Positions 29,241-33,307 of a DNA stretch of 64,000 nucleotides are shown piece by piece. Source of the DNA: Yuukianura sp. NJ FZ-2021 (taxonomy: Eukaryota). The notes beneath the pieces are model-generated. The model did no database searches. It saw nothing but the letters and a program-made list of their open reading frames with translations, and was not told the origin of the DNA. The stretch lies in NCBI GenBank assembly GCA_046563655.1, contig CM102286.1, positions 7,750,001-7,814,000 on the forward strand, read 5' to 3'. A program made the translations under genes and the position numbers. The first letter of the stretch is position 1; each line of letters starts with the position of its first letter.

Positions 29241-29795
29241 CAGAAGAAGCTGTAAGATACAAAGTCGCTCTGATTCGTTGTTTCAGGAAGTGAAGGAACG
29301 CCGATACCGTAAATTTTCAAAAAGAAACGAGGCGTGTACATATTTATTGATTTGATTTGTAATTAAGACGTTTAACGAGTTGTCTCGCTTTTTCTAAAAC
29401 AATTAAAAATTTCTTGTTTGACATCATTCCACGATGGACAAAGCATTTCTATTCCATCATAAGTTTCACAGCACTCAAATTTTTCCCAGAATCCAAAATT
29501 TTAACAATTTGACAACAATAATTTTGTTTGTGGGACTGAATAATTCAACTTCTTGTCAGTATTTTGCTTTTGTAAACACAGTCGGAGTTTTAACTTTTGG
29601 CATTTTTAGTTAATTAAATGTACTTAAAAAAAATATCAGACAATTAAAGCTGAAAGGGTAAGGTCAGGACATAAGTTCGTTTTGGAAAAAGAAAAAACAA
29701 CAACGGACACTGCTCCCTCCAAAATTTTGAATTTTACAGTATCCCGCCATTGAGACAGATTGAAACAAAGGGTGTGTATCTTGCAGCTTCTTCTG
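29241..29795 (-). mobile_element. pogo/Tigger internal-deletion derivative (MITE), 555 bp
   Basis: 20-bp TIRs CAGAAGAAGCTG(T/C)AAGATAC with TA TSD. It is inserted into the TA of the spacer motif CGAACAG-TA-GTTACTCCC and contains the transposase start (MPKVKTPTVFTK) fused to the transposase C-terminal sequence. Confidence 0.9.
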
Positions 29796-32700
29796 TAGTT
29801 ACTCCCTGCACTTCCAAAAACATTTTCTTTTTTTTTTGACAAATCGAACAGTAGTTACTCCCTTCACTTTTAAATTCTTCTTTTTTGACATTTTCAATCT
29901 TAGTTACTCCGTCTAATGTTATATAGAATTTCATTTTTTTTTACAGTTTTAACTTCAATTTCAATCTCAATTATAGTTACTCCCTTCACCTCTTTGAACA
30001 TGGCCTTTTCATTTTTCTTGCCAACATGAGATAGTTACTTCCTGTTCCTTTTTACTTGTTTTTTTTTAATTTTTGATGATACAAGTGATTTCCTTAAATG
30101 TAAATTTTTCTTAATACAACACTTAACGTAACCTAACATTCAATTATAAAAATTAAATCAAAAGTGAGAAATATTTAAAATCTCAGTTGATTTGATACGT
30201 TAACCTAACCCAAATTGAGTCAGTGGACGTAACCTAAATGCAAATTTTCCGAAATAGTTTAACCTAAATGCTAATTTTGCCAAATTTGCGTAACCTAAAT
30301 GCAAATTTTGTCGAAATTGCATAACCAAAATTGCAAATTTTGTCAAATTTTCGTAACCTAAATTCATATATCAAATTTGCGTAACCTAAATGCAAATGTC
30401 AAATTTGTGTAACCTAAATGCAAATTTTTTAAAATTTTCGTAACTTCAGGGCAAATTTTGTAATATGTTTTGTAATATGTAATATGTAATATGTACAGAA
30501 CAAACTGTAAGATACAAAGTCGCTCTGATTCGTTGTTTCAGGAAGTGAAGGAACGCCGATACCGTAAATTTTCAAAAAGAAACGAGGCGTGTACATATTT
30601 ATTGATTTGATTTGTAATTAAGACGTTTAACGAGTTGTCTCGCTTTTTCTAAAACAATTAAAAATTTCTTGTTTGACATCATTCCACGATGGACAAAGCT
30701 ATTCTATTCCATCAGAAAGTTTCACAGCACTCAAATTTTTCCCAGAATCCAAAATTTTAACAATATGACAACAATAATTTTGTTTGTGGGACTGAATAAT
30801 TCAACTTCTTGTCAGTATTTTGCTTTTGTAAACACAGTCGGAGTTTTAACTTTTGGCATTTTTAGTTAATTAAATGTACTTAAAAAAAATATCAGACAAT
30901 TAAAGCTGAAAGGGTAAGGTCAGGACATAAGTTCGTTTTGGAAAAAGAAAAAACAACAACGGACACTGCTCCCTCCAAAATTTTGAATTTTACAGTATCC
31001 CGCCATTGAGACAGATTGAAACAAAGGGTGTGTATCTTGCAGCTTCTTCTGTAGTTACTCCCTGCACTTCCAAAAACATTTTCTTTTTTTTTGACAAATC
31101 GAACAGTAGTTACTCCCTTCACTTTTAAATTCTTCTTTTTTGACATTTTCAATCTTAGTTACTCCGTCTAATGTTATATAGAATTTCATTTTTTTTTACA
31201 GTTTTAACTTCAATTTCAATCTCAATTATAGTTACTCCCTTCACCTCTTTGAACATGGCCTTTTCATTTTTCTTGCCAACATGAGATAGTTACTTCCTGT
31301 TCCTTTTTACTTGTTTTTTTAATTTTTGATGATACAAGTGATTTCCTTAAATGTAAATTTTTCTTAATACAACACTTAACGTAACCTAACATTCAATTAT
31401 AAAAATTAAATCAAAAGTGAGAAATATTTAAAATCTCAGTTGATTTGATACGTTAACCTAACCCAAATTGAGTCAGTGGACGTAACCTAAATGCAAATTT
31501 TCCGAAATAGTTTAACCTAAATCCTAATTTTGCCAAATTTGCGTAACCTAAATGCAAATTTTGTCGAAATTGCATTAACCAAAATTGCAAATTTTGTCAA
31601 ATTTTCGTAACCTAAATTCATATATCAAATTTGCGTAACCTAAATGCAAATGTCAAATTTGTGTAACCTAAATGCAAATTTTTTAAAATTTTCGTAACTT
31701 CAGGGCAAATTTTGTAATATGTTTTGTAATATGTAATATGTAATATGTACAGAACAAACTGTAAGATACAAAGTCGCTCTGATTCGTTGTTTCAGGAAGT
31801 GAAGGAACGCCGATACCGTAAATTTTCAAAAAGAAACGAGGCGTGTACATATTTATTGATTTGATTTGTAATTAAGACGTTTAACGAGTTGTCTCGCTTT
31901 TTCTAAAACAATTAAAAATTTCTTGTTTGACATCATTCCACGATGGACAAAGCTATTCTATTCCATCAGAAAGTTTCACAGCACTCAAATTTTTCCCAGA
32001 ATCCAAAATTTTAACAATATGACAACAATAATTTTGTTTGTGGGACTGAATAATTCAACTTCTTGTCAGTATTTTGCTTTTGTAAACACAGTCGGAGTTT
32101 TAACTTTTGGCATTTTTAGTTAATTAAATGTACTTAAAAAAAATATCAGACAATTAAAGCTGAAAGGGTAAGGTCAGGACATAAGTTCGTTTTGGAAAAA
32201 GAAAAAACAACAACGGACACTGCTCCCTCCAAAATTTTGAATTTTACAGTATCCCGCCATTGAGACAGATTGAAACAAAGGGTGTGTATCTTGCAGCTTC
32301 TTCTGTAGTTACTCCCTGCACTTCCAAAAACATTTTCTTTTTTTTTTGACAAATCGAACAGTAGTTACTCCCTTCACTTTTAAATTATCCTTTTTTGACA
32401 TTTTCAATCATAGTTACTCCATCCACTGTTATATAGAATTTCATTTTTTTTACAGTTTTAACTTCAATTTCAATCTCAATTATAGTTACTCCCTTCACCT
32501 CTTTGAACTTGGCCTTTTCATTTCTCTCGCCAACATGAGTTACTTCCTGTTCCTTTTCACTTGTTTTTTTTTAATTTTTGATGATACAAGTGATTTACTT
32601 GTATGTAAATTTCTCTTAATACAACACTTAACGTAACCTAACATTCAATTATAAAAATTAAATCAAAAGTGAGAAATATTTAAAATCTCAGTTGATTTGA

Positions 32701-33307
32701 TACGTTAACCTAACCCAAATTGAGTCAGTGGACGTAACCTAAATGCAAATTTTCCGAAATAGTTTAACCTAAATGCTAATTTTGCCAAATTTGCGTAACC
32801 TAAATGCAAATTTTGTCGAAATTGCATAACCAAAATTGCAAATTTTGTCAAATTTTCGTAACCTAAATTCATATATCAAATTTGCGTAACCTAAATGCAA
32901 ATGTCAAATTTGTGTAACCTAAATGCAAATTTTTTAAAATTTTCGTAACTTCAGGGCAAATTTTGTAATATGTTTTGTAATATGTAATATGTAATATGTA
33001 CAGAACAAACTGTAAGATACAAAGTCGCTCTGATTCGTTGTTTCAGGAAGTGAAGGAACGCCGATACCGTAAATTTTCAAAAAGAAACGAGGCGTGTACA
33101 TATTTATTGATTTGATTTGTAATTAAGACGTTTAACGAGTTGTCTCGCTTTTTCTAAAACAATTAACAATTTCTTGTTTGACATCATTCCACGATGGACA
33201 AAGCATTTCTATTCCATCAGAAAGTTTCACAGCACTCAAATTTTTCTCAGACTCCAAGATTTTAACAATTTAACAACAATAATTTTGTTTGTTGGACTGA
33301 ATAATTC
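29241..33307. repeat. ~1.25-kb tandem spacer subrepeat, three full units plus a partial (starts 29241, 30496, 31750, 33001)
   Basis: Periods are 1255, 1254 and 1251 bp. Each unit is a pogo derivative, a TAGTTACTCCCTTC array and the 30-bp minisatellite. Confidence 0.95.

What the first reader, a model, noticed from the sequence alone, without database searches (positions are those of the whole stretch)
29241..33307. rDNA spacer subrepeats born by unequal crossover between two pogo insertions
Seen: copy 1 is a clean MITE (left end CAGAAGAAGC, TA TSD inside a spacer motif). Copy 4 is the long pogo (left end CAGAACAAAC after a TAATATG run). Copies 2 and 3 are chimeric: left flank, TIR and CCATCAGAAAG match copy 4, while CCCAGAATCCAAAA, the deletion junction and the right TIR match copy 1. 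Inference: two independent insertions ~700 bp apart recombined and amplified a 1.25-kb unit, which records how a transposon creates new spacer length variants beside the Pol I promoter.
Basis: partly seen in the sequence, partly recalled or inferred. Interest (0 to 1): 0.7.

Follow-up and report, generated by a model that had tools for sequence, protein, structure and literature searches.

The report
Transposon-seeded repeats in an rDNA spacer
Two copies of a pogo-type jumping gene that landed about 700 bases apart upstream of a ribosomal RNA gene recombined out of register, making a short array of 1.25-kb repeats with hybrid transposon copies at the joints; it is a clean but textbook example of how transposons seed tandem repeats.

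Summary
One rDNA unit lies on the minus strand. Upstream of its 18S gene lie four same-orientation pogo-type copies. Copy 1 (29241-29795) is a 555-bp MITE with 22/23 TIRs and a TA duplication. Copies 2 and 3 (30496-31051, 31750-32305) are identical to each other. Copy 4 (33001-34443) is the long, frameshifted copy carrying HTH_Tnp_Tc5 and DDE_1 pieces. The periods are 1255, 1254 and 1251 bp.

Copies 2-4 share one left junction (TAATATG-TA|CAG) and copies 1-3 share one right junction. Copies 2 and 3 carry copy 1's 1068-bp internal deletion. They are therefore recombinants. Eight of nine informative nucleotide events fit a single switch between element positions 221 and 247. That test alone is weak, because 9 of 84 orderings fit as well.

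Caveats:
- Copy 4 has no right TIR. Its last ~181 bp and 32 bp of flank are replaced by 280 bp of repeated DNA ending in (CCTAA)8.
- Only assembled contigs of public reads were available, so the unit number is unverified.
- The promoter is not mapped.
- This rDNA unit is the only one in the window and differs from the bulk rDNA at 28885.

Verdict: the reading is supported. It is a new example of a known mechanism, of modest interest.

The parts
21357..25282 (-). 28S (LSU) rRNA gene
   Evidence: Rfam RF02543, 3087 bits, model 1-3401
25589..25740 (-). 5.8S rRNA gene
   Evidence: Rfam RF00002, 124.5 bits
26067..27877 (-). 18S (SSU) rRNA gene; the array lies upstream of it in the direction of transcription
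   Evidence: Rfam RF01960, 1780 bits
29020..29152 (.). Block X, gene-proximal; candidate promoter region (inferred only)
   Evidence: About 80 % identical to 34942-35071
29241..29795 (-). Copy 1: a 555-bp pogo-derived MITE with TA at 29239-40 and 29796-97. The transposase-sense strand is minus.
   Evidence: TIR 22/23 including TA; its flanks rebuild a 25-mer found 4 times uninterrupted
29798..30493 (.). Spacer 1: ~60-bp AGTTACTCC repeats (A, to ~30050), a unique part, 31-bp repeats (30228-30461) and a TAATATG run
30496..31051 (-). Copy 2: hybrid MITE with copy 4's left junction and left end, and copy 1's deletion, right arm and right flank
31054..31747 (.). Spacer 2, equal to spacer 1 except for 5 columns private to unit 2
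31750..32305 (-). Copy 3: hybrid MITE, identical to copy 2
32308..32998 (.). Spacer 3: carries 19 private columns, all within 32387-32613 (a conversion-like patch); otherwise identical to spacer 1
33001..34443 (-). Copy 4: long pogo copy with a frameshifted transposase reading from 34432 downwards, a left TIR and no right TIR
   Evidence: HTH_Tnp_Tc5 25.4 bits; DDE_1 35.8 and 35.6 bits; frames; homology to the MITE ends at 34443; no eighth TIR
34444..34724 (.). Filler replacing pogo's last ~181 bp and 32 bp of spacer: 237 bp of high-copy DNA plus (CCTAA)8.6 at 34681-34724
34724..34941 (.). A': a further copy of the 60-bp-repeat block of the spacer
   Evidence: 93.2-94.5 % identical to 29830-30050, 31085-31305 and 32340-32555
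34942..35071 (.). Block X', the distal duplicate of X

Best explanation
The spacer upstream of this rRNA unit received two separate pogo-family insertions in the same orientation. A 555-bp internally deleted copy (MITE, copy 1) landed at a TA between two 60-bp spacer repeats. A long copy (copy 4) landed 700 bp further upstream, at a TA after a TAATATG run.

The first 307 bp of the two copies are 96.8 % identical. Sister chromatids or homologues paired out of register, copy 4 against copy 1, and exchanged within that arm, between element positions 221 and 247. The product was copy 1 - spacer - hybrid - spacer - copy 4.

The hybrid then acquired 3 private changes. A second out-of-register exchange added another unit, giving the present array of 3 spacers and 2 identical hybrids.

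Shown: the anatomy, the junctions and the mosaic of diagnostic sites. Inferred: the order of events, and crossover rather than break-induced copying, which would leave the same product. The array has no demonstrated function. It is a length variant of the spacer lying between two copies of a promoter-like block.
For: (1) The array is 98.4 % identical over 2824 bp at an offset of one unit.

(2) There are four left and three right TIRs, all in one orientation, against 0.01 sites expected by chance.

(3) Copy 1 is a simple TA insertion. Its flanks rebuild a 25-mer present 4 times intact in the spacer.

(4) Copies 2-4 share the left junction, and the sequence upstream of it is identical in units 1 and 3 for ~390 bp. 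Copies 1-3 share the right junction and its flank.

(5) Copies 1-3 share one deletion junction, with TC microhomology, that removes 1068 bp present in copy 4.

(6) In the shared 307-bp arm there are 9 informative events. Three are copy-4-like (positions 6, 9, 220-221) and all lie left of five copy-1-like ones (247, 252, 258, 272, 293). Eight of the 9 fit one switch.

(7) Copy 1's left TIR matches the right TIR at the two positions where copies 2-4 differ (22/23 against 20/23). Copy 1 therefore cannot descend from copies 2 and 3 without two reversions.

(8) Copy 4 is a genuine pogo. HTH_Tnp_Tc5 and two DDE_1 pieces score above Pfam's cut-offs, and the DDE_1 match reaches to 33279, inside the arm shared with the MITE.

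(9) Contigs of run X1 match with 0 differences across copy 3's left (31693-31995) and right (31966-32369) junctions. This run is probably the source sample, so the support is not independent.

(10) Contigs in X2 and X3 join 34283/34288-34396 to the MITE's right arm. A full-length pogo with a MITE-type right end therefore exists in this genome.
Against: Copy 4 lacks its right TIR and target duplication, so its status as an independent insertion rests on one junction only.

Position 167 is discordant: copies 1-3 have A and copy 4 has C. It needs a later change in copy 4 or a short conversion.

The one-switch test is weak on its own, since 9 of 84 orderings of the 9 events fit as well or better.

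Spacer 3 differs from spacers 1 and 2 at 19 columns, all within about 230 bp. Simple duplication does not explain this. It needs a later conversion from another spacer copy.

A' shows that 60-bp repeat blocks already flanked the region and could have helped the mispairing.

No raw or long reads were available, so the number of units is the assembler's word.
Confidence: 0.75

Rival explanations
1. The duplication was made by out-of-register exchange between pre-existing spacer repeats (the r2/A block against an r2'/A' block to the right of copy 4). The inner copies were first long, and later took copy 1's deletion and right arm by gene conversion.
For: A' (34724-34941) is 93-94.5 % identical to the A blocks. 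It starts 32 bp from where copy 4's right flank would lie if that flank were of r2 type. Conversion does act here, as spacer 3's 19-column patch shows.
Against: This needs two steps where one suffices. The r2' segment that would prove it is deleted. A' differs from every A block at several sites, yet no unit shows an A'/A hybrid boundary. The 31-bp repeat block downstream of 28S (19886-20069) continues into more 31-bp repeats, not into an AGTTACTCC repeat. This argues that site 2 lay inside the 31-bp/TAATATG repeats.
Confidence: 0.1
2. Assembly artefact: the three units, or the join of copy 4 to the array, come from mis-assembly of reads from different rDNA units.
For: rDNA spacers are hard to assemble. 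The window holds a single rDNA unit. At 28885 nearly all read depth in the same sample has C where the window has G (X1 441/441, X2 17468/18038, X3 74469/75186). No read-level check of unit number was possible.
Against: The units are distinguishable: 5 columns are private to unit 2 and 19 to unit 3. Run X1 contigs match unit-specific stretches with 0 differences, for example 30021-30400, 31693-31995 and 31966-32369. The pattern of parental copies at both ends with identical hybrids inside is what biology predicts, not what collapse or chimerism would produce.
Confidence: 0.08
3. There was one insertion only. The second junction and the duplication arose by aberrant (sister-chromatid or alternative) transposition using one element's ends.
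For: Cut-and-paste elements can make tandem duplications with an element at the joint.
Against: As I work it through (inference), that route leaves an empty donor site and no element at the far end. Here both ends of the array carry an element, and they are of two different structures (short and long) with 10 differing columns in 307 bp.
Confidence: 0.03

Closest known systems
Bar duplication of Drosophila melanogaster: unequal crossing over between two roo elements (passage read in PMC13322080, which cites Tsubota et al. 1989)
   Same: Exchange between two same-orientation transposon copies at different sites duplicates the DNA between them and leaves a recombinant element at the joint.
   Different: Bar keeps a single roo between 203.5-kb duplicates, because the two elements lay on different chromatids. 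Here both parental copies are kept at the ends, the unit is 1.25 kb, the partners are a MITE and its long relative, a second round has occurred, and the site is an rDNA spacer.
Double-insertion model for tandem transposons, with the R1 and hobo arrays (McGurk & Barbash 2018, PMC5932611; abstract and found passages read)
   Same: Two insertions of one family close together give a substrate that unequal exchange expands. Their R1 example also lies in rDNA.
   Different: That model concerns two insertions at the same site, giving head-to-tail dimers separated only by a target duplication. Here the insertions are 700 bp apart, so the repeat unit is transposon plus host spacer, and the hybrid element records the first exchange directly.
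Transposon remnants in rDNA intergenic spacers (Bendich & Rogers 2023, PMC10319768; abstract and section 16 read)
   Same: Spacers are proposed as favoured landing sites for transposons, and their repeats as transposon-derived.
   Different: That paper infers past visits from short direct repeats and proposes break-induced repair as the generator. Here the elements are still recognisable, and homologous exchange between them explains the repeat.
pogo/Tigger transposons and their deletion-derived MITEs (Pfam DDE_1, HTH_Tnp_Tc5)
   Same: TA target duplication, ~22-bp TIRs, Tc5-type HTH and DDE_1 transposase pieces; the MITE keeps both ends of the long form.
   Different: The long copy here is frameshifted and lacks one end. 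The subfamily within pogo was not determined.

Membership tests
pogo/Tigger DNA transposon (Tc1/mariner superfamily) | TA target-site duplication | tested here: met
   Copy 1 has TA at 29239-40 and 29796-97, and the empty site is rebuilt exactly. Copies 2 and 3 also have TA on both sides. Copy 4 has it on the left side only.
pogo/Tigger DNA transposon (Tc1/mariner superfamily) | Terminal inverted repeats | tested here: met
   22/23 in copy 1 and 20/23 in copy 2. Seven TIR sites against 0.01 expected. Copy 4 has no right TIR.
pogo/Tigger DNA transposon (Tc1/mariner superfamily) | Transposase with a CENP-B/Tc5-type HTH and a DDE_1 catalytic domain | tested here: met
   HTH_Tnp_Tc5 scores 25.4 bits (cut-off 22.2). 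DDE_1 scores 35.8 and 35.6 bits (cut-off 22), covering profile positions 1-39 and 75-130. CENP-B_N scores only 14.5 bits, below its cut-off of 21.2.
pogo/Tigger DNA transposon (Tc1/mariner superfamily) | Intact open reading frame (autonomous copy) | tested here: not met
   The reading frame shifts among three frames with stops. Introns were not modelled.
MITE / non-autonomous deletion derivative | Short, non-coding, keeps both ends of a longer element | tested here: met
   The MITE is 555 bp. Its positions 1-306 match copy 4 at 33001-33307 and its positions 305-374 match copy 4 at 34374-34443. A 1068-bp deletion with TC microhomology separates them.
MITE / non-autonomous deletion derivative | Many dispersed copies in the genome | not testable with these tools
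   No whole genome is held. The window contains only the array copies. A contig of organism B (X4, record 24) spans the same deletion junction.
Duplication by non-allelic homologous (unequal) exchange between dispersed repeats | Parental repeats in direct orientation at both ends of the duplicated block | tested here: met
   Copy 1 lies at the proximal end and copy 4 at the distal end, in the same orientation.
Duplication by non-allelic homologous (unequal) exchange between dispersed repeats | Hybrid repeat at each internal joint | tested here: met
   The flanks and the deletion are unambiguous. At nucleotide level 8 of 9 events fit one switch, but 9 of 84 orderings fit as well.
Duplication by non-allelic homologous (unequal) exchange between dispersed repeats | Reciprocal deletion product, or a pre-duplication allele, exists in the population | not testable with these tools
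   Only contigs of reads were served, and no joint diagnostic of such an allele was seen.
rDNA intergenic-spacer subrepeat | Lies in the spacer between rRNA transcription units of a tandem rDNA array | tested here: inconclusive
   The array begins 1364 bp upstream of the 18S 5' end and has spacer-type repeats on both sides. However, the window holds one rDNA unit only, bounded by non-rDNA at about 19886 and about 35406.
Same-site double-insertion tandem (McGurk & Barbash model) | Head-to-tail elements separated only by a target-site duplication | tested here: not met
   The elements are separated by about 700 bp of spacer.

The most novel reading that the evidence does not exclude
This locus would be an early-stage snapshot of how the long subrepeats of arthropod rDNA spacers are born. 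A MITE and its parent element insert between a gene promoter and a duplicated spacer promoter (X and X'). They recombine, and the new 1.25-kb unit of transposon plus enhancer-like 60-bp and 31-bp repeats then spreads through the rDNA by concerted evolution and changes Pol I regulation.
Probability: 0.12. Interest if true: 0.55.

Novelty: new member of a known kind. Interest (0 to 1): 0.3.

Why it matters
Spacer subrepeats are usually too old to show how they arose. Here both parental insertions, the hybrid joints and the duplicated host spacer are all still legible, so the first steps from dispersed transposon to tandem repeat can be read directly. The mechanism itself, homologous exchange between two transposon copies, has been known since the Bar duplication. 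The case is therefore a tidy teaching example and a possible marker for spacer length variation, not a new principle.

Tried and rejected
- Whole-genome search for other MITE copies, empty sites and other rDNA units: no genome is held.
- Earlier-notes look-ups by place near the finding, by the MITE sequence and by the filler sequence: nothing found. One word look-up failed on a word limit.
- Public reads: only Logan contigs were served, for 3 runs of one sample and 1 run of a second organism. They cannot count units.
- Summed contig depths are far higher over the ETS bin 28800-29023 than over the array (for example X3: 30660 against 0-1000). The tool warns that such depths cannot rank parts, so I draw no copy-number conclusion.
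- Run X4 (organism B) has contigs across copy 1's left junction (record 23), the deletion junction (record 24) and the right junction (record 25). It has no cover in the bins holding the site-2 junctions of copies 2 and 3. Missing cover is not evidence of absence.
- Joints such as 29170>34794 and 29198>31081 are explained by the 60-bp repeats aligning in several registers. I did not take them as empty sites.
- Pfam gave nothing for 4 of the 8 ORF pieces tried.
- The hypothesis that copy 1 hopped locally from copy 2 or 3 was rejected. It would need two reversions in the left TIR.
- Sister-chromatid transposition was rejected (see rival explanations).
- Literature searches for a pogo or MITE element forming rDNA spacer subrepeats listed no such case among the titles and abstracts shown. 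Those searches cover only open-access papers and preprints, so this is weak evidence that the case is not in print.
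Full report
**Setting.** The window carries one complete rDNA unit on the minus strand: 28S at 21357-25282, 5.8S at 25589-25740 and 18S at 26067-27877. Transcription therefore runs from high to low coordinates, and the finding (29241-33307) lies upstream of the 5' ETS. It begins 1364 bp from the 18S 5' end. No second rDNA unit is present in the 64 kb. Spacer-type repeats stop at about 19886 on one side and about 35406 on the other. Beyond them lie ordinary sequences, including a BEL/Pao retrotransposon and a BBE-type oxidase ORF. 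A (CCTAA)n tract and unchecked notes by other agents point to an arthropod, possibly a springtail. I did not test this.

- Self-BLAST shows 30493-33307 matching 29238-32056 at 98.4 % over 2824 bp, and 31747-33307 matching 29238-30802 at 97.8 %.
- A TIR pattern finds seven sites in the window against 0.01 expected. Four are left ends (29241, 30496, 31750, 33001) and three are right ends (29795, 31051, 32305), all in one orientation.
- The elements are copy 1 at 29241-29795, copy 2 at 30496-31051, copy 3 at 31750-32305, and copy 4 starting at 33001. The periods are 1255, 1254 and 1251 bp.
- Copy 1 has 22/23 complementary termini including its TA. Copy 2 has 20/23, because its left end reads CAGAACAAAC instead of CAGAAGAAGC.
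- Copy 1's flanks, with one TA removed, give GACAAATCGAACAGTAGTTACTCCC. That 25-mer occurs uninterrupted four times in the same spacer, at the boundary between 60-bp repeats.
- Copy 1 is therefore a clean TA insertion.

**What the element is.** Copy 4 carries degenerate transposase coding sequence on the minus strand.
- It starts with MPKVKTPT at 34432.
- Its pieces match HTH_Tnp_Tc5 at 25.4 bits, and DDE_1 at 35.8 bits (profile positions 1-39) and 35.6 bits (positions 75-130). All are above Pfam's cut-offs. CENP-B_N is only a sub-threshold hint.
- The second DDE_1 piece reaches to 33279, inside the 307-bp arm shared with the short copies. The MITE's left arm is therefore the 3' end of the transposase gene.
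- The frame is broken several times, so copy 4 is not autonomous as it stands.
- The short copies equal copy 4 at 33001-33307 joined to 34374-34443, a 1068-bp deletion with TC microhomology. A further 181 bp and the right TIR follow.
- Copy 4 loses similarity to the MITE at 34443 and has no right TIR anywhere in the window.
- Contigs of runs X2 and X3 join 34283/34288-34396 to the MITE right arm (29568-29743 and 32078-32247). Full-length pogo copies with that right end therefore exist in this genome, and copy 4 is truncated rather than different.

**Why copies 2 and 3 are recombinants.** There are two left junctions: AACAG-TA|CAG for copy 1 and TAATATG-TA|CAG for copies 2-4. Both end in TA exactly at the terminal CAG, and the flanks have no similarity. 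Homologous processes cannot place an element precisely against a non-homologous flank, so two integrations are required.
- Upstream of the second junction, units 1 and 3 are identical for about 390 bp, and unit 2 differs at two columns.
- Copies 1-3 share the right junction and the following 80 bp, apart from one poly-T length difference in unit 2.
- Copies 2 and 3 thus have copy 4's left junction together with copy 1's deletion, right arm and right flank.

Inside the shared arm, one search lists 13 variable columns, after setting aside one boundary artefact of my coordinates.
- Four columns (three events: positions 6, 9 and 220-221) have copies 2 and 3 like copy 4.
- Six columns (167, 247, 252, 258, 272, 293) have them like copy 1.
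- Three columns (205, 206, 270) are private to copies 2 and 3.
- Eight of the nine informative events fit one switch between positions 221 and 247. Position 167 does not.
- This ordering test is weak by itself, because 9 of the 84 possible orderings fit as well or better. The argument rests on structure, and the nucleotides merely agree with it.
- Direction is given by the TIRs. Copy 1's left end matches the right TIR at both positions where copies 2-4 differ. Copy 1 therefore cannot be a local hop from copy 2 or 3 without two reversions.

**History of the array.** The layout is copy 1 - spacer - hybrid - spacer - hybrid - spacer - copy 4. The parental copies sit at the ends and the two hybrids are identical. 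This is the product expected from pairing copy 4 with copy 1 out of register and exchanging in the arm, followed by a second out-of-register exchange. That second exchange came after the hybrid had gained its three private changes.

The alignment of the three units has 33 variable columns of 1258, and 2 of them are boundary artefacts.
- Seven separate unit 1 from units 2 and 3, all within the element's first 270 bp.
- Five are private to unit 2.
- Nineteen are private to unit 3, all within columns 638-869 (32387-32613).
- Outside that patch and the element's left arm, units 1 and 3 are identical.

Such clustering is not what mutation after duplication gives. It looks like a conversion tract from another spacer copy. 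I count 11 such events that can be compared with the outlying block A' (34724-34941). A' agrees with unit 3 at 7, with units 1 and 2 at 3 (one of them an ambiguous poly-T length), and with neither at 1. Unit 3 therefore keeps the older state there. Sequence alone cannot distinguish crossover from break-induced copying between the same partners.

**What lies beyond copy 4.** From 34444 there are 237 bp unrelated to pogo and then (CCTAA)8.6 at 34681-34724. After that the spacer resumes at TTTTTTTTGACAAATCG, 32 bp past the point where an r2-type flank would begin. Next come A' (93.2-94.5 % identical to the A blocks) and X' (34942-35071, about 80 % identical to X at 29020-29152), and then more 60-65-bp repeats.
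- The filler has very high summed depth in the read contigs. Contigs break at 34440, 34474 and 34681 in both organisms. One organism-B contig repeats 34466-34681 head to tail.
- The filler is thus a piece of a high-copy repeat with a telomere-repeat tract.
- Other agents noted telomere-repeat scars at break-repair joints elsewhere in this genome (not tested here).
- This matters in two ways. Copy 4's right target duplication cannot be seen. The A' block also allows a rival in which pre-existing spacer repeats, not only the pogo arms, guided the mispairing. I rate that rival at 0.1. It needs an extra conversion step, and the homologous 31-bp block downstream of 28S continues into further 31-bp repeats rather than into an AGTTACTCC repeat.

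**Reads.** Four runs hold part of the stretch, three from one sample and one from a second organism, all served as assembled contigs.
- Run X1 contigs match with no differences at 30021-30400 (unit-1-specific), at 31693-31995 and at 31966-32369. The last two cover copy 3's two junctions, and its private variants at 31954-31955 and 32019 fall inside them. This run is probably the source of the assembly and is not independent support.
- At 28885 almost all depth in the sample has C where the window has G (X1 441/441, X2 17468/18038, X3 74469/75186). This unit is therefore a minority variant of the rDNA.
- Contigs at 96-98 % identity also cross copy 1's left junction, in X3 (record 16) and in organism B (record 23). 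The copy 1 insertion is thus not private to this unit.

**The promoter claim.** X and X' form a duplicated block of about 130 bp, each adjoined by AGTTACTCC-type repeats: 60-bp for X, 65-bp after a ~96-bp gap for X'. This resembles the gene-promoter and spacer-promoter arrangement known from other animals, which I recall and did not check here. The array lies between them, 88 bp from X. No start site is mapped, so 'beside the Pol I promoter' is plausible but untested.

**Comparison with what is known.**
- Exchange between two transposon copies that duplicates the DNA between them is the classical explanation of Bar. The passage in PMC13322080 describes roo elements with one retained between 203.5-kb duplicates.
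- McGurk & Barbash (PMC5932611; abstract and passages read) show that double insertions at one site give tandem dimers that unequal exchange expands, including R1 in rDNA.
- The present case differs in detail. The insertions are 700 bp apart, the partners are a MITE and its long form, both parents are kept, and host spacer is included in the unit. It is the same kind of event.
- My searches showed no report of a pogo-seeded spacer repeat among the listed titles and abstracts. That is weak evidence of absence.

**Verdict.** It is a new member of a known kind, with interest 0.3.

Noticed in passing
window 34444-34724: Copy 4's right end and 32 bp of spacer are replaced by 237 bp of high-copy DNA ending in (CCTAA)8.6. 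In a contig of a second organism, 34466-34681 is repeated head to tail with a 216-bp period. This may be a break-repair scar with captured satellite and telomere repeat, or a fragment of a telomere-associated element.
   Followed up: partly
window 29020-29152 and 34942-35071: A ~130-bp block next to the ETS is duplicated at ~80 % identity 5.9 kb upstream. Each copy is adjoined by AGTTACTCC-type 60-65-bp repeats (X' after a ~96-bp gap). It is a candidate gene promoter and spacer promoter pair.
   Followed up: partly
window 19886-35406: Only one rDNA unit is present. It is bounded by non-rDNA on both sides, and the spacer-type DNA on the left begins within the 31-bp repeats. At 28885 the window has G where nearly all read depth of the same sample has C. 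The unit is either a solitary or edge unit, or a collapsed array.
   Followed up: partly
window 32387-32613: All 19 unit-3-private differences fall within about 230 bp of the 1.25-kb unit, and mostly agree with the outlying A' block. This looks like a gene-conversion tract.
   Followed up: yes
window 20151-21331: Downstream of 28S, the same 60-bp repeat family occurs in inverted orientation within a 466-bp higher-order tandem repeat (2.1 copies, 95 %).
   Followed up: no
window 50135-56484: A BEL/Pao LTR retrotransposon has 353-bp LTRs that are 100 % identical and an uninterrupted 1776-aa ORF (Peptidase_A17, RVT_1, integrase zinc domain). It is probably young.
   Followed up: partly
window 168-869, 15256-15573, 17526-17739: Three stretches match their own reverse complement (74-90 % identity). 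They are long palindromes or hairpin-type elements.
   Followed up: no
window 61256-62800: A 514-aa open frame on the minus strand carries FAD_binding_4 and BBE domains (berberine-bridge-type oxidase).
   Followed up: no
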